A stretch of DNA of 64,000 nt. Origin: the human T2T-CHM13v2.0 reference genome, Homo sapiens. Positions 3,058 through 61,657 of the stretch are shown here, piece after piece (within the stretch, counting starts at the first letter, position 1; every line of letters begins with the position of its first letter). The translations under genes were made by a program, and so were the position numbers. The DNA is taken from NCBI GenBank assembly GCA_009914755.4, contig CP068257.2, positions 36,896,001 to 36,960,000 on the forward strand, read 5' to 3'. Below the pieces are notes generated by a model that saw only the letters and a program-made list of their open reading frames with translations, made no database searches and had not been told where the DNA came from.

Positions 3058-5992
3058 AGATTATCAGAGACTATTACAAACTGGAAAACCTAGAGGAAAT
3101 GGATACATTTCTGAACACATACAACCTGCCAAGATTGAATCAGAAAGAAACTGAAAACTTAAACAGACCAATAACAAGTAATAAGATTGGATAGGAAAAA
3201 AAATCTCCCAACAAAGAAAAGTCAAGGACCAGATGGTTTCACTACTAATTCTACCAAACTTAGAAAGAAGAACTAATACCAATCCTCACCAAGCCATTTC
3301 AAAAAATTAAAGAGGAGAGAATTCTTCCTAATTCATTCTATGAGGCCAACATTACCCTCATAACAAAATCAGACAAGAACACAACAAAAAAGAAAACTAC
3401 AGGCTGATATTCCTGATGAACATCACTTCAGTTCAGCATGGATACAGGCCAATATTTCTGGTGAATATAAGTTTTCTAGTATTTTGTTCAGCAAAAGCTA
3501 TCAACAAAATATTAGTAGCCTGAAACCAACAGCACATCAAAAAGATAATGCACCATGGTCAAGTGGGATGTATCCCAGAGATGCAAGGATGGTTCAACAT
3601 ACACAAATCAATAAATATGATACATCACATCAATAGATAAAAACAAAAACCATATGATCATATCAATAAATGCAGAAAAGGCATCTGATAAAACTTAACA
3701 TTGTTTCATAGTAAAAGCTCTCAACAAACTAGGTACAGAAGAAACATACCTCAATATATTAAAGTCCATACATGATTAACCCACAGCTAACATTATACTG
3801 AACGGGGAAAGGCGGAAAGTCTCTCCTCTAAGAACTGGAACAAGACAAGGATTCTCATTTTTATCACTTCTATTCAATATAGGACTGGAAGTCTTAGCCA
3901 GAGCAATCAGGCAAGAGAAAGCAATAAAGGTCATCCAAACTGGAAAAGAAGTCAAATTGTCCCTCTTTGGAGATGACATGATCTTACATCTAGAAAAACC
4001 TACAGACTCCACCAAAAAACTCTTAGGTTTAATTAAAAAATTCAGTAAAGTTGCAGGATACAAAAAAATCAGTAGCATTTATATACCCAATAATGCACTG
4101 GCTGAGAAAGAAATCAAGAAGAAAATCCCATTTACAATAGGTATAAGGAAAAAATATCTAGGAAAAAAATTAACCAAGGAAGCGAAAAATCTCTACAAAA
4201 AAACTACAAAACACTAATGAAAGAAATGGAAAAGGACACAAACAAATGAAAAGACACTGCATGGTCATGGATCAGAAGAACTAATATCATTAAAATGACC
4301 ACACCACCCAAATAAATCTACAGATTCAATGCAATCCCTGTTAAAATATTAACGTCATTTTTCACAAGAATAGAAAAAAACAATCCTAAAATTTATATGA
4401 AAGCAAAAAGGAGCCTGAATAGCTAAAGGAACCCTGAACAAAAACAACAAAACTGGGAGCATCACATAACCTGACTTCAAAATATATTACAAGGCTCTAG
4501 TAACCAAAAGAGCATGATACTAGTATAAAAACAGACGCATAGACCAATGGAACAGAATTGATAACCCAGAAATAAATCCACATATTCACAGCCAACCGAC
4601 TTTCAACAAAGGCATCAGTAACATACATTGGGAAAAAGACACCCTCTTCAATAAATGGTGCTGGAATAATTGGATATCCATATGCGAAAGAATAAAACTG
4701 GACCTCTATCTCTTGCCATATATAAAAATCAACTCAAGGTAGATGAAAGACTTAAACTTAAGACCCCAAATTATAAAACTATTAAAAGAAAATAGAGAAA
4801 ACATTTCAGGACATTGATCTAAGCAAAGATTTGATGGCTAAGACCTCAAAAGCACAGGCAAGAGAAAACAGACAAATGAGACTATATTAAACTAAAACAC
4901 TTCTGCACAGCAAAGGAAAGAAAACAACCAGCAGAGTGAAGAGACAACCTGTTGAATGGGATAAAATATTTGTAAACTGTTCATCTAGTAAGAGAAAATC
5001 CAGAATATACACAAAACTCAAACAACTCAACAATTAAAAAGAAAACTTTTACAAAGTGGGCAAAGAACGTCAATAGACATTTCTCAAAAGAAGACACAGG
5101 AATGGCCATCAAGCATATGAAAAAAAATACTCAATATCACTAATCATCAGGGAAATGCAAATCAAAACCACAATGAGATATCATCATACCTTAGTTAGAA
5201 TGGCAATTATTAAAAAGACAAAAAATAACAGATGCTGGCCAGAATGCAGAGAAAAGGGAACTCTTCTACACTGTGAGTGGGAATGTAAATTAGTACAGCC
5301 ACTATAGAAAACAGTAGAGATTTCTCAAAAAACTAAAAATAAGACTCAATATAATCCAGATATCTCACTACTGGGTATTTATCTAATGAAAAAGAAATCA
5401 GTATATCAAAAAGATACTTGCACCCACATGTTTACCGCAGCACTATTTACCATAGCAAAGACATGAAATCAACCTAAATGTCCATCCACAGATGAAATGG
5501 TAAACAAAATGTGGTACATATACACAATGGAATACTATTTGGCCATAAAAATAAGGAAATCATGTCACTTGCAGCAACATGGATGGAACCGGAGGTCATT
5601 ATGTCAAGTAAAATAAGCCAAGCACAAAGGACAAATACCACATGTTCTCACTCCTATGTGGGAGCTAAAAATGTTAATGTCATGGAGATAGAGAGTGGAA
5701 TGATGGTTACCAGAGGCTGAGCAGAGAGTGGGAGTGGAGAGGAAGAGAGTTTGGATAATGGGTACAAACATACAGTTAGATAGAAGGAATAAGTTCTGAT
5801 GTTGTATAGCAGAGTAGCTGACTATACTTAACAAAAATGTATTGTATAGTTCAAATCAGCTAGAAAAGAGGACTTGCAATGTTCCTGACACATAGAAATG
5901 AGAAATACCCAAGGTGACAGACACCCCAAAACCCTGACTTGATCATTACACATTCTATGCATGTAACAAACTATCACATGTACCCCATAACT
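3058..5992 (+). mobile_element. L1 LINE (L1PB/L1MA-like), 5'-truncated: ORF2 from ~codon 300 through RT domain and 3'UTR; nested inside the older L1
   Basis: Begins ...agagactattacaaactggaaaacctagaggaaatggatacatttctgaacacatacaacctgccaagattgaatc ([23 protein letters not shown]). It continues through ggatggttcaacatacacaaatcaataaatatgatacatcacatcaatag, ...gtcaaattgtccctctttggagatgacatgatcttacatctagaaaaacc (ORF track 3957-4217+ shows [22 protein letters not shown]...SKVAGYK), and ...atacacaatggaatactatttggccataaaaataaggaaatcatgtcacttgcagcaacatggatggaaccggaggtcattatg. The 3'UTR ends ...ggtgacagacaccccaaaaccctgacttgatcattacacattctatgcatgtaacaaactatcacatgtaccccataac. Confidence 0.85.
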
Positions 5993-16122: not shown

Positions 16123-16184
16123 TAGAACTTCACAATTACTGACACGATTCAACCCATATTAGGTTGTTTAGTATTATACATTAG

Positions 16185-16519
<335 letters not shown>

Positions 16520-17388
16520 CATAGCAAACTTTTGTAAACATAACTATTTATTAAAATTTGGTATAATTAATATTTAAATATCCTTTCTGGCAAGATTTAG
16601 CCAGTTTTTTAAGCTTCATTGAGAGAACCACAATATTAGCATTAATAATAGAATGGTCTATTAATTTTTTAAAAAGATACTATGTCTGCATTTCCAATAT
16701 AAAATTCACAGCAATGATTCAGGTAGAAATTAAATGAGGATGTCATTGTCAACCTTTTAAATTATATTACAGGAGCAGGGAGCACACGGGCCCTGAGGTA
16801 GAAATGAATAAGGAATATTCTAGAACCACCAAGAAGCCAGTGTGGCCACAGCAGAGTGAGCCAGTGGTGCTGGAGGCAGGTGAGATCTTGAAGGGCCTTG
16901 GCAACATGAACAGGAGCTTGGATTTTATCCACATTGCCGAGGGAAGTATGAGGTGGTGTTTAGCAGGGCATAAATCTCATCTGATCTGTACTTTGAGGAA
17001 AACACTCTGACTTCTGTGTGGAGAACAGTCTATAGGAAGCCAAGAGGAGAGGCAGGGAGATGAGGGAGGGGTGACTTCAGTCTCCAGGAGAATGAGCTAG
17101 TGATGTGAATTAAGGTGCTGGTGGTGGAGGAAGTGAGGTGGAGAACTGGACACTGGGATCTATTTTGAAGAGGGAGCCTACAGAACTTGTTGGTGGATGG
17201 CTATGAGGGAAAGAGGATTAAAGAATGATGCTAGGCATTTGGGCTTAAACAAACCCCTGAGTAAATGGTTATCCTATTATTAATACTAAGATGGGTAATG
17301 CTAGGGAAGGAGTAGCCTTGGGGAGCAGTGATGAGTTATTTTCTTAGAGAGAAGCCACGTTACCTATAGGAGGCTCAACAGAGTATCA

Positions 17389-22284: not shown

Positions 22285-22702
22285 TTTACACTTCACACCT
22301 ATTAGGATGGCTACTATGAAATATAAAAAAAATTAAAAATAACAATGGTGGCAAAAATATGAAGAAATTAGAACCCTTGTGCACTGCTGGTGGGAATATC
22401 AAATGATACAGCCTCTATGGAAAACAGTATGGTGGCTCCTCAAAAAATTAAAAATAGAATTACCATATGATCCAGCAATTCTACTTCTGGGTATATATTC
22501 AAAAAAATTTAAAGCAGGATCTCAAAGAGTTCTTTGTACAGCCATGTTCATGGCAGCATTACTCACAATAGCCAAAAGGTCAAAGCAACCCAATCGTCCA
22601 TCCACAGATGAATGAATAAACAAAATGTGGCATACAATAAAATGTCATTCAGTCTTTAAAAAGAAGAAAATTTGGACACATTGTACAATATAGATGAATC
22701 TT
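22285..22702 (+). mobile_element. Old L1 (L1M-type) ORF2 C-terminus/3' region, part A (interrupted by a nested insertion)
   Basis: ggcaaaaatatgaagaaattagaacccttgtgcactgctggtgggaatatcaaatgatacagcctctatggaaaacagtatggtggctcctcaaaaaattaaaaatagaattaccatatgatccagcaattctacttctgggtatatat ... caacccaatcgtccatccacagatgaatgaataaacaaaatgtggcataca (ORF 22379-22615 shows CWWEYQMIQPLWKTVW..LKIELPYDPAILLLGIY). Confidence 0.75.
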
Positions 22703-53700: not shown

Positions 53701-55499
53701 ATGAGATAACGTAACTTGTTGATAAGTGTGTAAAGAGTATGAAGAGATGATCAAGCTCACAAGTTTCCAAGTGCTAACATCTATAAAACTCCATTGTCAC
53801 CCATCAAATCAGCAAAGATTAAAAACCACAATAGAATGTGATAAAATAGTGCTCTCAGATACTTCCTGGAGAAGTATAGATGGGCAGAATTGGGTGATCT
53901 GGTATCAATGATCATTCTTTCATACCAATACACCATGGGATTTTGCAATCAGAAGGTAAAGAAGACACAGAAGGAAAAGAAGGTGAAGATTAAACCAGCA
54001 AAAACCCATAATAAGTAGGACTTCTTCCTATTCATTAGTAAGAAAGAGTTGGGTGTCCCCATGGGAAAATGCTAATTTAGTGTCCTGAACCACTGTACCC
54101 TCCAATTCCTGCTTCCCCCACAACAGTGGCCCCACACTGAGTCCTACAACGAGGATAATGATCCTCAACCCCCAATTGCACAGACAGGGCTAAGTCAGAG
54201 ACAGTGATGCCAACCTTGCTGATGTCTCTAAAACACTCAACTACTGGGGGCTAACCCTAAGAAAAATTATTGACTCCGATTCCTAAGTTAATTTCCTATA
54301 AGGTGGAAGAAGCAACAAGTGTCACTTCTCTTCTGGGCTCTATGACACCAAATAGTGGAGCCGAAGAGACTTGCTGATGTTTTGAAACCCAAGGCCAAAT
54401 AATGCTCTCTAAACCCTTAGAGGTGTGACTAGGATATTCACAGAAGCCACGCAAAAGACAGCAGCCTTCAATGAAGAAACAAAGAAACAAAAAACATGGT
54501 TCCTTTTATAAATATTTATCGATTATCTAAGGCTAGGTTAATTGTTGATAACTATCAATTATCTGAGCAAGATACGCAGAAACACTTCAGGTGCTTGAAC
54601 TGCAGCATCCTGGGCTCCAACCCAAACTTACTGGAGAAGAAGCTTTAGATACCAGGAATCTGCATTTTAACCAACTCCTCAGGGAAACTGCCCCAGAGGG
54701 GGTCTAGGCTAACCATGCGCAACTTCCACCCATTCTCCTGGGAAGTGATTGTGAATCTCCTCCAAACCCCTCTTACACTTCCTGATTAAGTTGGTGCCCC
54801 CTACTGAATGTCAGCCTCACTGAATCTTAACGAGGAATCGCCAGACTGGGGGGGGGATTGTGCAGCATGTCTGGGGAACACTTCACTACTTCACTAAACC
54901 CTGCTGCACACATGCTGAACACCGTTCCAAAGGCTACAGGAACTGAGCACCGCATTGGAATCTGGCCCTGGAGGGTGCCCAGCATGGCGACCCTGAGGGG
55001 TGCAGGAACCCAGTGAGAAGGAGAAACAGAAGGTACAGTCCAGCTCGAGACCACGCACATAAAGAAATCTGTAGGCAGGGTCTCTATTATTGTGCCATAT
55101 TAAATATCTTGATATTTTAAAGCAATATTATTTTTCTGATTATAAAAGTACTCATTGTAGAAATTTTAATTGTGCCATCATCCTGCAGAAAAATGAAAGT
55201 ACAAAAAATGAAAAAGCAGCTATACACGGCCACAAAGTCACAGGGCTCATCGGGATGTGCTAACCAGGCTGGAAACTGATCAAAGCTGATTTATTGAGAA
55301 AAAATAGGCAGCATATCAAAGACTTACATCAGCTTCATAGTAGACAGACTTTGGGGGCGGGGGAACTCTGTCTCTTTTGAGTATATTCTCAAAAGGATAA
55401 ACTTTCACCTTCCTGTGAAGCACAGTTACTATAAATCAGATTTGCAAACTGTGAGAAATGCTTACAACTCAATGAGTCTTTTGTCAGCCAGTGGGGGCT

Positions 55500-55870
55500 C
55501 CATCGTGAAATCCACCCTTCGCCATAGCGATGGGATAAATCATCACCAGCCCCGAGACATCGCCTAATCCCTTCCTCGCAAGGCAGATTCGGGCGCTTTC
55601 TGCATCTGCTTCGTGTTATTGAAAAGAGCTCGGCTCATCTGCTGGGCTCTCAGGCTTCACAGTGACCTCGCACAGAACGCTGCTACTTCTGAAACTGTTT
55701 TAGACTCTTCCGTCTATGAAACAGACACAGAGTTTAAGTTTAGCGTCTTTTATGGTCAGAAATATTTAGCGTTACTTCCAGAGCGGCAGCCGTGGAACAA
55801 TGTGGGAAAGAAGTGCTTCAGTTCACTTCTTGGGAAGTACTGACCCTGGGTCAATTTAATTTTTTCCGTA
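55500..55870. promoter_or_regulatory. CpG-retaining (non-depleted) ~370-bp block; candidate unmethylated regulatory element or promoter-like island
   Basis: There are 18 CpG dinucleotides in ~370 bp (atCGtg, ttCGcc, agCGat, ccCGag, atCGcc, ctCGca, ttCGgg, ggCGct, ttCGtg, ctCGgc, ctCGca, aaCGct, cCGtct, agCGtc, agCGtt, agCGgc, cCGtgg, cCGtaa) at ~47-50% GC. I estimate an observed/expected CpG ratio of roughly 0.8, against ~0.2 in the surrounding kilobases. Confidence 0.3.
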
Positions 55871-55890
55871 AGATTTCCCCTTCTTACTTT

Positions 55891-55980
55891 TCTCCTTCCA
55901 CTGCTATATGTAACAGTATCTCCCCTTCCACTGCTATATGTAACAGTATCTCCCCTTCCACTGCTATATGCACCAGTATG
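55891..55980 (+). repeat. Minisatellite: 3 tandem copies of a 30-bp unit tc(c/t)ccttccactgctatatgtaacagtatc
   Basis: Copies sit at 55891-55920, 55921-55950 (identical except one base) and 55951-55980 (3' end diverged to ...tgcaccagtatg). ORF 55792-56004 translates it as SPSTAICNSI x3. Confidence 0.9.
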
Positions 55981-56097
55981 CTAGTATACAACATTATAGA
56001 TTAATAATATGCTATATTGTTTAAAAATATTAATGTTATATAATTAACATGGTGTGCATATTATTATATTGACAATACGTAATGTGATGTGATAATA

Positions 56098-56275
56098 AGT
56101 CTCACTGAGTGCCAGGCACCGCTTTGAATGCTCTAAACTCATTAGCTAATTTATTCCTCGTGATTCTATGGGGTAGATGCACTATTTCATTCCCATTTTA
56201 CAGCTGAGGAAACTGAGGCAGCTAGTAACAGGTGGAGCCAAGCTTCACACTGAGATCATCTGGCCCCAGCACACT
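56098..56275 (-). mobile_element. MIR SINE core, antisense
   Basis: ctcactgagtgccaggcaccgctttgaatgctctaaactcattagctaatttattcctcgtgattctatggggtagatgcactatttcattcccattttacagctgaggaaactgaggcagctagtaacaggtggagccaagc is the reverse complement of the MIR consensus (...ccccattttacagatgaggaaactgaggcacagagaggttaagtaacttgcccaaggtcacacagc...). Confidence 0.7.
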
Positions 56276-59015
56276 CATAAAAATGAGCAAAAGTATAAAA
56301 GCCAAAGGGAAAAGGAAGCCAAGGGGTGAAAATCCTAATTACAAACAAATCCTGGGTAAGCTGGGTTTTTAGTCCTTCCCCACATGTGAACAGCAACTAG
56401 AAACCTGAACAGTGACTTTGTTTCCCCTGTCATCCATTGTTGGTGCCTGATCCTCACACAAAATCTTACGGAGCAGTATCTAGTGATTAGCTTAGCTGAA
56501 TTGAGCCTGGACACCCTTCATGAGCTGGAGGACAGAGGACGTGTCGATGGAGGGTCCAACTTCAGGCATCTGTACTCGCCTGCTACAGGTGAGTGGACCT
56601 ATGAACCCCCAGCCTCATCAAGCACCCGAGGGTCACCTGCCTGCTTCACCTGGAAGAGACAGCAAGGTGTGATCCCAGGAAGATCCTCTGCCAGGAGGCT
56701 TACAGGCAGAAGCAGCGGCTGCTGAACATAGATGCTGTCGGCAGGACACAGGGGTGATAGGGGGTGAGCCAGTGGAGCAGGTGAAGGTGCAGACTACAGG
56801 CAGCCCCCCTGAGATCCTGCCCAGACCCCAGCAGCAGCTCCCCTGTCCCTCTCTAGCAGCTTCGCTGTGCCCGAAGTGTTTGAGAACAGGTGACCCATGC
56901 CCTGAGTGGCAGATGCTGTGTCTTTTTGATCCCTTCTCTCCCTCCCCCCCCACCCCCAGTGGGGTACATGGAAGGTTTGCTAAATGTTTGTTGAATGAAT
57001 AAACGAGCCCAAGTCAGAAGCAGTCTCCAAATCATTCCTCATCGCAAAAGGGTGCGGTGGAAAAACTCACAAAGCCAAGGCAGGAGGACACACTCAACTT
57101 GGAAACGGCCCGTGCCCAGCTTTGGAACAGGCACAGCCTGAGCTTCAAGGAAGTCACTTGACCAGCAGTAGCTCCCACCTTTCCTTGCAGCTAGAACAGC
57201 ATCAGACCAAGTGATCTCTAATGTGATGATTTGCTAAAGTACAATGAGTTTTACAACTAGAAAGTACCTTCCTCTCAAGACTGACTTCACTATGAGCCAC
57301 CTAATTTTTCCTCTCTCTTCTTTTGGTATTTTTGTTGCAAATAGTACACACAAAACAGGATATATAATCTATTTGTGCAATTTAAAGAATAAGAAGCAAA
57401 CACCTTTGCATGTACTCCCTAGTCCACAACAGTCAGCCCCAGGACCTCAGAAGCCCCTTATGCCTTTCCCCTAAAACTCTCCCCTCCCTGACAAGGTAAT
57501 TCCAATGCTGAGTTATGTGGTTTTTTTTCCTTATTTTTCTTTTCAACACATATTACGTTTCTCTGAATAATATGCTTTTTAATGTTGCCTCTTTTTAATC
57601 TTTATTTGTGGAATCATATTGTATGTAATCTGTGACTTTTTTCTACTCACATATGAGAACCATCCACACTGATACATGGCTACAGATAGACACTTGGAGT
57701 TTATTTTTCACTGCTGTATAGTACTCCATTGGTGGAGTACAATAGGTTTATGTATCCACTTTTCTGTAGATGGACACTTGGGTTGTTCTGTTTTTGCTCA
57801 TACATACCTCCTGGTGCTCAGGTACAAGGGAATACAGACCCAGGGTGAGACTGCTGGATCACAGGCTAGGCACATCTTCAGCTTTACTAGGTAACACCAA
57901 GCCAATACAAAAGTGCTTGTACAAACTCATGCTCCTGCCAGCATGGAGGACCCACTGTGCCACATAAAAACATCACTGTTATTAACTTGTTTTATTTGCA
58001 TATGATTATTTTTTCCCTTATCCCCAACCACTTCTCAAAGCAACTAGCCAGCATGTGCCACATAGGCAAGCACCCACTCCAATGTGATCTATATGGTTAG
58101 GTATGTATGTACCCTGGAAAACCCTGTGATGTTGCTTGAGGAGTATATAACTTTTTTATGTATGTAAGTAGCATGTGCTACAAAGCGCGTTCTGTTTTCT
58201 GTATTTTTCACTCCACTCAGTGTTTTGTAAAACATGCTCATGTTGCTCCATAGGTATCAGAGACAGGATGATGTTTTATCTTTAAGATGGGTACGCCACC
58301 CTCATTTTATAGATCACAGTGATAGCTCACAATTGTTTAGTACTCAGTGGGGTCTAAATGTACTAACTCGTTTAATCTCCCACGAACCCTGCAAAACAGA
58401 TGCTTCCGTTTCATATAAAATGAGACCAAGGCACAAAGAAACTAAGGAACTTGTACAAAATCACCAAGTTAGTAAACATCAGAGCAGGATTTGAATTGAG
58501 CCAGAATGTGTTCTTATCCACGACATGAAACTGGATAAGAATGCAAAGCTCAGAGAATTTTCATGACTAGCATCTCTGGGATTCACAGCTGGCGACCACG
58601 GAGCAGAACTAATATACAGATGGTTCCCCTCTCAGTCCAGTCCTCATTCCATCGGCTCCAAAATGTGTATTATTCTATATGATTAGCTGGTGAACAACAA
58701 AGGCAATTAGTTAGTCCTCTTCAGCAAATGTTAGTAAATGAAAATATTATAGAGACAGAACTCTTTTTAGGAAATGCAATCATGTGAATTTAAAAATGCT
58801 TTATCAGAAATAGAATTAATGACAAAAATATTTATAGGATCCTAAGAAAATGGATTTGCTATTTTTTTTGTCGGCTGATGATAATCATCTGGGTGCATCT
58901 TTGGTTGTGACAGCTCCACCCCTTCAGAGAGTTGGATCTTCATACACACCTAACATGCTAAGAGTAGATGTGCATGATATGGTAGTTAGTATAATTTCTG
59001 TAATAAAAAAAGTAC

Positions 59016-60631: not shown

Positions 60632-61657
60632 TGTAGGGAAAAGAAAGAGAGATCTGACTGTTACTGTGTCTATGTAGAAAGGAAAGACATAAGAGACTCC
60701 ATTTTGAAAAAGACCTGTACTTTAAACAATTGCTTTGCTGAGATGTTGTTAATTTGTAGCTTTGCCCCAACCACTTTGCCCTAGCCACTTTGACCCAACC
60801 TGGAGCTCACAAAAACATGTGTTGTATAAAATCAATGTGTAAGGGATCTAGGGCTGTGCAGGACGTGCCTTGTTAACATGTTTACAAGCAGTATACTTGG
60901 TAAAAGTCATCGCCATTCTCTAGCCTCAATAAACCAGGGGCACAATGCACTGCGGAAAGCCGCAGGGACCTCTGCCCTTGAAAGCGGGGTATTGTCCAAG
61001 GTTTCTCCCATGTGATAGTCTGAAATATGGCCTCGTGGGATGAGAAAGACCTGACTGTCCCCCAGCCCGACACCCGTAAAGGGTCTGTGCTGAGGTGGAT
61101 TAGTAAAAGAGGAAAGCCTCTTGCAGTTGAGATAGAGGAAGGCCACTGTCTCCTGTCTGCCCCTGGGAACTGAATGTCTCAGTATAAAACCCAATTGTAC
61201 ATTTGTTCAATTCTGAGATGAGAGAAAAACCGCCCTATGGTGGAAGGTGAGACATGTTTACAGCAATGCTGCTTTGTTATTCTTTACTCCGCTGAGATGT
61301 TTGGGTGGAGAGAAACATACATCTGGCCTATGTGCACATCCAGGCATAGTACCTTCCCTTGAACTTAATTATGACATAGATTCTTTTGCTCACATGTTTT
61401 TTGCTGACCTTCTCCTTATTATCACCCTGCTCTCCTACTACATTCCTTTTTGCTAAAATAATGAAAATAATAATCAATTAAAACCGAGGGAACTCAGAGG
61501 CCGGTGCCGGTGCAGGTCCTTGGTATGCTGAGCGCCGGTCCCCTGAGCCCACTGTTGTTTCTCTATACTTTGTCTCTGTGTCTTATTTCTTTTCTCAGTC
61601 TCTCGTCCCACCTGACTAGAAATACCCACAGTTGTGGAGGGGAAGGTCACCCCTTCA
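60632..61657 (+). mobile_element. Solo LTR of HERV-K (HML-2), LTR5 family (LTR5A/B-like rather than LTR5_Hs), 1026 bp, TG...CA termini, 6-bp TSD GATAAT
   Basis: Starts tgtagggaaaagaaagagagatctgactgttactgtgtctatgtagaaaggaaagacataagagactccattttg. Contains ...ctgcggaaagccgcagggacctctgcccttgaaagcggggtattgtccaaggtttctcccatgtgatagtctgaaatatggcctcgtgggatgagaaagacctgactgtcccccagcccgacacccgtaaagggtctgtgctgaggtggattagtaaaagaggaaag ... gtctcagtataaaacccaattgtac ... ggaactcagaggccggtgccggtgcaggtccttggtatgctgagcgccggtcccctgagcccactgttgtttctctatactttgtctctgtgtcttatttcttttctcagtctctcgtcccacctgactagaaatacccacagttgtggaggggaaggtcaccccttca. Flanks are gatgataat|TG...CA|gataataag. There is no primer-binding site (tggcgcccaacgtgggg) or internal sequence downstream, so this is a solo LTR. 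Confidence 0.85.

What the first reader, a model, noticed from the sequence alone, without database searches (positions are those of the whole stretch)
55500..55870. Island of undepleted CpGs (~18 in 370 bp) in otherwise CpG-poor DNA; candidate unmethylated regulatory element or promoter
Vertebrate germline methylation erodes CpG to ~20% of expectation, as seen throughout this window. This block keeps CpG near expectation without being very GC-rich. That implies protection from methylation (promoter, TSS or enhancer-like element, possibly for a non-coding transcript) or very recent acquisition. I do not recognise it as any repeat family. It lies directly upstream of a 30-bp minisatellite and ~700 bp upstream of an ORF ending in a consensus splice donor (56596). 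Of the findings here, this is the best candidate for an undescribed functional element.
Basis: partly seen in the sequence, partly recalled or inferred. Interest (0 to 1): 0.6.

Follow-up and report, generated by a model that had tools for sequence, protein, structure and literature searches.

The report
Small orphan CpG island, human DNA
A 290-bp patch of human non-coding DNA has kept all its CpG sites while everything around it lost them, which most likely marks a small spot kept free of DNA methylation in the germline; this is a known and common kind of element, and its function could not be shown here.

Summary
55500-55870 holds 18 CpGs (O/E 0.86); the core 55504-55792 holds 17 (O/E 0.95, GC 49%) with no TpG/CpA decay excess, against O/E 0.23 window-wide. 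GC-matched non-Alu 300-bp windows never exceed 8 CpGs.

The window is human: it carries a Ya/Yb-type Alu with a 38-A tail and intact target-site duplication. The only other CpG-rich patches are young Alus.

The block is not Alu, L1 5'UTR, SVA, LTR5_Hs, an Rfam RNA, a tRNA, protein-coding, or bacterial, plasmid or phage DNA. It has no poly-A tail and no second copy. Older Alus here keep only 0-38% of their CpG sites, so retention by youth would need a human-age insertion, and no matching family was found.

The best reading is a borderline, orphan-type CpG island kept unmethylated in the germline. It may be the core of an old 968-bp LTR-like element (55091-56058, TG...CA ends, 6-bp duplication, p~0.013, post hoc).

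Promoter function is inferred only. The block contains no SP1, NRF1, CRE, NFY or TATA motifs, transcription direction is unresolved, and no orthologues, methylation data or TSS data were reachable. The nearby "ORF plus donor" matches no known protein. This is ordinary in kind.

The parts
55504..55792 (.). CpG-retaining core: 17 CpGs in 289 bp, O/E 0.95, GC 49.5%, no TpG/CpA excess
55481..55852 (.). Longest interval that meets the Gardiner-Garden & Frommer CpG-island criteria (372 bp, GC 0.50, O/E 0.73); borderline on GC
55091..56058 (-). Candidate discrete 968-bp LTR-like shell around the core. It runs TGTGCCATATTAAATAT...ATAATTAACATGGTGTGCA, with an 11/13 terminal inverted repeat. Family unidentified. 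The orientation is inferred from the minus-strand AATAAA and the position of the tandem repeat.
   Evidence: the combination is seen at 4/300 control loci; post hoc
55085..55090 (.). Left copy of the putative 6-bp target-site duplication TATTAT
56059..56064 (.). Right copy of the putative 6-bp target-site duplication TATTAT
55894..55979 (.). 30-bp minisatellite, 2.9 copies, 96% matches. Each unit holds an imperfect palindrome ACTGCTATATGTAACAGT.
55353..55363 (.). GC box GGGGGCGGGGG, 140 bp left of the core, at the centre of a weak imperfect palindrome
55430..55436 (+). TATAAAT on the + strand, ~70 bp upstream of the first core CpG. This is a consensus match only.
   Evidence: read directly
55290..55295 (-). 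Minus-strand AATAAA, followed by CA at 12-20 nt and the GU-rich run TGTGACTTTGTGGCCGTGT (55242-55224). A plausible poly(A) site, inferred only.
55707..55712 (-). ETS-type core CGGAAG. Further GGAAGT cores lie at 55774-55779 (-) and 55833-55838 (+).
   Evidence: GGAAGT x2, P=0.016 uncorrected
55520..55525 (-). YY1-type core ATGGCG, a single occurrence, not significant

Best explanation
The block is a small, borderline CpG island of the 'orphan' type. It is a ~290-bp stretch of unique, non-coding human DNA that has been kept largely free of cytosine methylation in the germline. Its CpGs have therefore escaped the deamination decay that erased about 80% of CpGs in the flanks.

What is shown:
- The CpG retention is extreme and local.
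- There is no decay signature inside the block.
- The block is not any tested young repeat, RNA family, coding sequence or foreign DNA.

What is inferred:
- Bound factors, or unmethylated-CpG readers such as CFP1 with H3K4me3, exclude de novo methylation.
- The element acts as a weak or tissue-restricted (germline or early-embryo) initiation site, or as a distal regulatory element, probably for a non-coding transcript.
- The island may be the surviving regulatory core of an old solo LTR (55091-56058) whose other 669 bp decayed normally.

The direction of any transcription is unresolved.
For: CpG statistics come: core O/E 0.95, TpG 0.87 and CpA 1.14, against flanks at 0.19-0.30 with TpG/CpA excess. 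Formal CGI criteria are met over 372 bp.

Local calibration: Alus with 2-14% non-CpG divergence keep 0-38% of consensus CpG sites, and a genuine LTR5-family solo LTR 5 kb away has O/E 0.31. Methylated DNA in this neighbourhood does decay.

Only a human-age insertion could keep its CpGs by youth. The window's Ya/Yb-type Alu, with a 38-A tail and perfect TSD, shows what such an insertion looks like. The block has neither tail nor long TSD, and matches none of Alu, L1HS 5'UTR, SVA or LTR5_Hs.

Inside the candidate 968-bp shell, the non-core 669 bp has O/E 0.18 with TpG 1.26, so the retention is specific to the core.

[quoted passage not shown] About half of CGIs are orphans, and 42-60% of human orphans show initiation marks (PMC2944787).
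Against: No methylation, chromatin, CAGE or conservation data could be consulted.

GC is only 49%, low for a long-standing CGI, and the Takai-Jones criteria fail.

The block contains no SP1, NRF1, CRE, NFY, E2F, TATA or CTCF consensus; it has only ETS-like cores at uncorrected P=0.016.

Orientation cues conflict. A GC box and TATAAAT lie upstream on the + strand, and the + strand has no poly(A) signal for 1.5 kb. The core's GC skew (-0.12) and a well-formed AATAAA/GU-rich site favour the minus strand.

Confidence: 0.55

Rival explanations
1. Relic island. The block was germline-hypomethylated in recent ancestors but is methylated and inactive now, and its CpGs have not yet had time to decay.
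For: Qu et al. report that regions with lineage-specific loss of hypomethylation still show CpG o/e above background (PMC5793779). The block lacks classical promoter motifs and has modest GC.
Against: O/E 0.95 with no TpG/CpA excess allows almost no decay. Alus at only 2% non-CpG divergence have already lost about 60% of their CpG sites, so the loss of protection would have to be very recent.
Confidence: 0.13
2. Young insertion. The block is a recently inserted repeat, LTR piece or non-coding retrocopy, and its CpGs persist only because it is young.
For: The edges are sharp. A TG...CA element with a perfect 6-bp TSD and an inverted terminal repeat encloses the block. The adjacent tandem repeat is 96% uniform. 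Dfam was not available.
Against: The host is human. The families active recently enough do not match: Alu; L1HS 5'UTR, SVA and LTR5_Hs (with a positive control for LTR5 at 60.6 kb). No frame has a protein homologue. There is no poly-A/T tail and no 7-20-bp TSD. The rest of the candidate LTR shell is fully CpG-decayed. The window has no second copy.
Confidence: 0.12
3. Selection, not hypomethylation. The CpGs are kept by purifying selection on a transcribed product, such as a non-coding exon, a structured RNA or a small ORF.
For: Folding gives weak signals (z -1.9 on +, -1.6 on -). GTAAG donor-like sites flank the block pointing outward on both strands.
Against: Rfam finds nothing, even at E<=10, and there are no tRNAs. 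No open frame exceeds 91 aa and none has a homologue. The short ATG frames that end at donors share no words with any protein. Selection would have to act on essentially every CpG and on nothing in the flanks.
Confidence: 0.07
4. Foreign or artefactual DNA. The block is a bacterial, vector, phage or viral fragment, or a mitochondrial insert, whose CpG content reflects a non-vertebrate or non-nuclear source.
For: GC near 50% with CpG O/E near 1 resembles enterobacterial DNA.
Against: blastn finds no match in 28 Gb of E. coli genomes, 72,556 plasmids or 50,697 phages. Three k-mers have no exact match in viral contigs, and two have none in the prokaryotic genome or metagenome contigs. The core's GC skew is only -0.12, whereas primate mtDNA strands are strongly skewed (my own knowledge). 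No frame matches a mitochondrial or any other protein.
Confidence: 0.02

Closest known systems
Orphan CpG islands (Illingworth et al. 2010, PMC2944787)
   Same: It is a local cluster of undecayed CpGs away from any recognisable protein-coding promoter, in DNA that is otherwise CpG-depleted. The size and CpG count lie at the low end of that class. The class is typically unmethylated in sperm and often marks tissue-restricted non-coding TSSs.
   Different: The defining property, an unmethylated state shown by CAP-seq or bisulfite, was not testable here. GC (49-50%) and length (~290-370 bp) are borderline. No TSS evidence was available.
Germline (sperm) hypomethylated regions outside promoters (Qu et al. 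2018, PMC5793779; Molaro et al. 2011 as cited there)
   Same: In that work a high CpG o/e relative to the flanks is used as the sequence footprint of long-term germline hypomethylation. The block shows that footprint in extreme form.
   Different: Those regions are defined from methylomes. Here only the footprint is seen, and the age and current state are unknown.
Solo LTRs of ERVK-type endogenous retroviruses, including exapted LTR promoters
   Same: The enclosing 968-bp candidate has TG...CA ends, a short terminal inverted repeat and a 6-bp target-site duplication. It also has an internal tandem repeat and a same-strand AATAAA about 200 bp from the 3' end. A genuine LTR5-family solo LTR in this window (60632-61657, TSD GATAAT) shows the same hallmarks.
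   Different: It has no sequence similarity to LTR5_Hs and no family was identified. The terminus/TSD evidence is post hoc (p~0.013) and lies in AT-rich, low-complexity flanks. The genuine LTR5 copy has CpG O/E 0.31, so a core at 0.95 is not a generic LTR property.
Young CpG-rich primate retroelements (AluY, L1HS 5'UTR, SVA)
   Same: They also form roughly 300-bp patches of retained CpG in CpG-poor DNA. The other two CpG-rich patches in this window are such Alus.
   Different: The block has no sequence similarity to them, no poly-A tail, no long target-site duplication and a lower GC.

Membership tests
CpG island, Gardiner-Garden & Frommer criteria | Length >=200 bp | tested here: met
   372 bp (55481-55852) satisfies all three criteria together
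CpG island, Gardiner-Garden & Frommer criteria | G+C >= 50% | tested here: met
   Exactly 0.50 over 55481-55852, but 0.495 from the first to the last CpG; borderline
CpG island, Gardiner-Garden & Frommer criteria | CpG observed/expected >= 0.6 | tested here: met
   0.73 over 372 bp and 0.95 over the core
CpG island, Takai & Jones criteria | >=500 bp with GC >=55% and O/E >=0.65 | tested here: not met
   The best 500-bp window has GC 0.46 and O/E 0.71
Orphan CGI / germline hypomethylated region | Unmethylated CpGs in germline or ES cells (CAP-seq, WGBS) | not testable with these tools
   Only the evolutionary footprint is seen: no TpG/CpA excess, and O/E four times the flanks
Orphan CGI / germline hypomethylated region | Remote from annotated promoters | tested here: inconclusive
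   No Pfam-recognisable exon among 300 open segments of the window except L1 RT/EN, and no protein homologues.
RNA polymerase II promoter | Mapped transcription start (CAGE, RNAPII, H3K4me3) | not testable with these tools
   No expression or chromatin data available
RNA polymerase II promoter | Core or proximal promoter motifs above chance | tested here: inconclusive
   Inside the block only GGAAGT x2 (P=0.016 uncorrected); no SP1, NRF1, CRE, NFY, E2F or TATA. A GC box (55353) and TATAAAT (55430) lie just upstream on +, which are consensus matches only.
Young human retroelement (AluY / L1HS-PA2 / SVA / LTR5_Hs) | Sequence similarity to the family consensus | tested here: not met
   No Alu match to the block. 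Dfam not available.
Young human retroelement (AluY / L1HS-PA2 / SVA / LTR5_Hs) | Poly-A tail and 7-20-bp target-site duplication at the block's edges | tested here: not met
   No A/T run >=7 in 54900-56300. Flanking direct repeats >=8 bp number 2, against a control mean of 5.7.
Solo LTR (ERVK type) | TG...CA termini with a short inverted repeat and a 6-bp target-site duplication | tested here: met
   55091-56058, TSD TATTAT, TIR 11/13. The combination occurs at 4/300 control loci. Post hoc and AT-rich.
Solo LTR (ERVK type) | Match to a curated LTR family consensus (Dfam/Repbase) | not testable with these tools
   Only LTR5_Hs (from memory) could be compared, with no similarity
Known structured RNA (Rfam) or tRNA | Covariance-model or ARAGORN hit | tested here: not met
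   0 hits at gathering threshold in the whole window; only E>2 noise in 55000-56400; 0 tRNAs
Protein-coding exon | Open frame with a homologue or domain | tested here: not met
   Longest frame 91 aa. No homologue among 5.8 billion proteins and no Pfam hit.

The most novel reading that the evidence does not exclude
The CpG core is the regulatory (U3) heart of an old ERVK-type solo LTR (55091-56058). It has been held methylation-free in the human germline for tens of millions of years while the rest of the same LTR decayed. That would make it an exapted LTR promoter or enhancer, driving an unannotated germline or early-embryo non-coding transcript.
Probability: 0.2. Interest if true: 0.45.

Novelty: new member of a known kind. 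Interest (0 to 1): 0.25.

Why it matters
If the island is truly unmethylated in the germline, it marks one more small regulatory or initiation site in a gene-poor, repeat-rich stretch of the human genome. It might also be an example of an LTR core co-opted and shielded from methylation. That matters locally, for annotating this locus and for interpreting variants at its 17 CpGs. It does not change any general picture: thousands of orphan CpG islands and non-promoter germline hypomethylated regions are already catalogued. Human methylome, CAGE and ENCODE tracks almost certainly cover this position already.

Tried and rejected
- **Exact-product look-ups.** Four mechanical ORFs in or near the block were looked up in public assemblies, with nothing on record. 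That index does not hold random human ORFs, so this route to orthologues failed.
- **Homology searches.** Three searches found no hits: the block's frames, the 38 best open segments of the window, and the two short ATG-to-donor frames.
- **Pfam.** A scan of 300 open segments >=55 aa found only L1 RT/EN and chance-level zinc-finger matches. No host gene was found, so intron orthologues could not be fetched.
- **Strand-asymmetry profile.** Tried in order to infer transcription direction. It is dominated by L1 and poly-A content and is uninformative.
- **Exact k-mer scans.** Viral, prokaryotic-genome and metagenome contigs gave 0 hits. This excludes a microbial or viral source but says little about primate repeats.
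- **blastn.** No match against E. coli, plasmids or phages.
- **Literature string searches.** Strings from the block, the minisatellite, the element termini and the young Alu's junction gave 0 papers.
- **RNA and DNA folding.** The block and the adjacent palindrome gave z of about -1.6 to -1.9, not distinctive.
- **CTCF site by eye at 55485-55498.** Rejected: the spacing is wrong, and the regex panel found none.
- **My first reading of the young Alu as a plain Ya5 that had lost 27% of its CpGs.** Corrected against printed Ya8 and Yb8 sequences. It is a Ya/Yb mosaic with almost no decay.

Full report
**Observation**

The window is AT-rich (GC 39.4%) and strongly CpG-depleted (575 CpGs, O/E 0.23). 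The CpGs sit at 55504-55791: 17 in 288 bp, O/E 0.95. TpG O/E is 0.87 and CpA 1.14, so the products of CpG deamination are not in excess there. The 700 bp on either side have O/E 0.30 and 0.19, with TpG/CpA at 1.1-1.3.

The edges are abrupt. There is no CpG in 55359-55503, and only one between 55792 and 56077. Against the non-Alu background (2.3 CpG per 300 bp), P(>=18) is about 5e-11, or about 3e-6 after scanning the window. In 251 GC-matched non-Alu windows the mean is 3.2 and the maximum 8.

The interval 55481-55852 (372 bp) just meets the Gardiner-Garden & Frommer criteria (GC 0.50, O/E 0.73). The Takai-Jones criteria are not met.

**Host and local calibration**

The window carries at least 13 Alus, so it is primate DNA. 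The only other CpG-rich patches are Alus at 16.2 and 36.6 kb.

The youngest Alu (16238-16519, minus strand) has a 38-A tail and a perfect target-site duplication. I first read it as AluYa5, and checking printed sequences corrected me. Its 3' half has the Ya-lineage changes seen in an AluYa8 insertion (PMC10988039). Its 5' half matches a Yb8-type polymorphic Alu (PMC12779367). Both lineages expanded in humans (my own knowledge), so the window is human. This Alu shows what a human-age insertion looks like: intact tail, intact duplication, almost no CpG loss.

Older Alus (2-14% non-CpG divergence) keep only 0-38% of consensus CpG sites. A genuine LTR5-family solo LTR at 60632-61657 (TGTAGGG...CCCCTTCA, 6-bp duplication GATAAT) has O/E 0.31. 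Methylated DNA in this neighbourhood does decay. A sequence still at O/E 0.95 is therefore either of human age or protected.

**What the block is not**

- It has no similarity to Alu and no second copy in the window.
- It has no Rfam family at gathering score anywhere in the window, only E>2 noise locally, and no tRNA.
- Its longest open frame is 91 aa. No frame has a homologue among 5.8 billion proteins or a Pfam domain.
- It has no blastn match in E. coli genomes, plasmids or phages. Exact k-mers are absent from viral, prokaryotic-genome and metagenome contigs.
The same LTR5 query found the 60.6-kb LTR5 copy, and the SVA query found Alu-like parts elsewhere in the window. This test rests on recalled consensi, not on Dfam.
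- It has no A/T run of 7 or more nearby, and flanking direct repeats are no more frequent than in controls.
- Folding is unremarkable (z -1.9 and -1.6).

**A possible shell**

A systematic search for TG...CA termini with duplications gave four candidates, about the control mean of 4.8. One stands out. The span 55091-56058 is 968 bp, starts TGTGCCATATTAAATAT and ends ATAATTAACATGGTGTGCA (an 11/13 terminal inverted repeat), and is flanked by a perfect TATTAT duplication. That combination occurs at 4 of 300 control loci. The p of about 0.013 is post hoc, and the flanks are AT-rich.

Read on the minus strand, the layout is LTR-like:
- an AT-rich 5' end;
- the 30-bp x 2.9 tandem repeat;
- the CpG core;
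- a GC box;
- AATAAA (55295-55290), with CA 12-20 nt later and a GU-rich run;
- the terminal CA.

The same logic recovered the genuine LTR5 solo LTR. No family could be assigned.

The 669 bp of this shell outside the core are fully decayed (O/E 0.18, TpG 1.26). So even if this is one element, it is not uniformly young. The core specifically escaped decay.

**Most likely mechanism**

The best-supported reading is a small orphan-type CpG island kept unmethylated in the germline. Qu et al. show that CpG o/e increases with the time a region has been germline-hypomethylated, and that regions which lose hypomethylation stay CpG-rich for a while (PMC5793779). Illingworth et al. show that about half of CGIs are orphans, that 42% of human orphans (60% when H3K4me3 is counted) bear initiation marks, and that unmethylated CpG density tracks H3K4me3 (PMC2944787).

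By analogy, the block would recruit unmethylated-CpG readers and act as a weak, probably tissue-restricted initiation or regulatory site. These steps are inferred, not shown.

Evidence for a promoter as such is thin. A pre-specified motif panel, tested against 500 dinucleotide-preserving shuffles, found no SP1, NRF1, CRE, NFY, E2F, TATA or CTCF in the block. It found only two GGAAGT cores (P=0.016 uncorrected) and single CGGAAG, ATGGCG and TGCCGC cores.

Orientation cues conflict:
- On the + strand, a GC box (55353) and TATAAAT (55430) precede the block, and there is no canonical poly(A) signal until 56998.
- The core is G-rich on the minus strand (skew -0.12), and the minus strand has a well-formed poly(A) site 200-500 nt downstream.

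**Context**

No host gene was found. Pfam on 300 open segments gave only L1 RT/EN and chance-level hits. The 38 best segments have no homologues.

It shares no three 5-residue words with any protein in the database. The same holds for a 13-codon frame ending at a weak donor on the minus strand inside the block. Nothing ties the island to a coding gene.

**Rivals**

- Relic island, recently re-methylated: 0.13.
- Young insertion: 0.12.
- Selection on an RNA or exon: 0.07.
- Foreign DNA or artefact: 0.02.
- Chance: excluded.

**Verdict**

'Promoter' is unproven.

The element belongs to a well-known and abundant class. For human DNA, the decisive data (WGBS, CAGE, cCREs, multi-species alignments, Dfam, gnomAD) already exist but were outside these tools. 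Interest is low to moderate. The most novel reading still open is an old LTR core kept methylation-free and exapted.

Noticed in passing
window 60632-61657 (+): Genuine LTR5-family (HERV-K HML-2 type) solo LTR, 1026 bp, TGTAGGG...CCCCTTCA, with a perfect 6-bp target-site duplication GATAAT. It is about 80% identical to a recalled LTR5_Hs consensus, so probably LTR5A/B. CpG O/E is 0.31.
   Followed up: yes
window 16238-16519 (-), tail and duplication to ~16180-16545: Very young Alu with a 38-A tail and a perfect ~14-bp target-site duplication (GTTTGCTATGG...). It is a mosaic: the 5' half carries Yb8-type diagnostic bases and the 3' half Ya-type ones, without the Yb8 7-bp duplication. It may be a gene-conversion hybrid or a minor subfamily, and it may be polymorphic in humans.
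   Followed up: partly
window 55894-55979: Each 30-bp minisatellite unit contains an imperfect palindrome, ACTGCTATATGTAACAGT, the form expected of a dimeric factor site. No known motif was assigned.
   Followed up: no
window 55281-55444: Imperfect ~160-bp palindrome centred on the GC box GGGGGCGGGGG (55353-55363). DNA folding gives z -1.9, with 8 of 200 shuffles folding as well, so it is not distinctive.
   Followed up: yes
window 56090-56270 and 56950-57010: A MIR core (86% identity over 56 nt to a recalled consensus) and a MIR-like tail (...AAATGTTTGTTGAATGAATAAA). The GC-rich but CpG-poor stretch 56400-56960 between them has O/E ~0.2.
   Followed up: partly
window 3780-4214 (+) and 22343-22612 (+): L1 ORF2 remnants (Pfam RVT_1, E 1.5e-6, plus an endonuclease hit in the second half of the window). 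+ strand L1 and poly-A content explains the window's A>T skew and makes strand-asymmetry analysis uninformative.
   Followed up: partly
The ATG frame ending on it is only 23 codons, has a weak Kozak context, and has no homologue.
   Followed up: yes
second half of the window (segments from 32.6-62.4 kb): Single marginal Pfam hits to CEBP_ZZ (E 7.5e-4) and zf-B_box (E 2.7e-3) among 150 open segments. This is about what multiple testing predicts. The segments responsible were not among the ten re-tested individually.
   Followed up: partly
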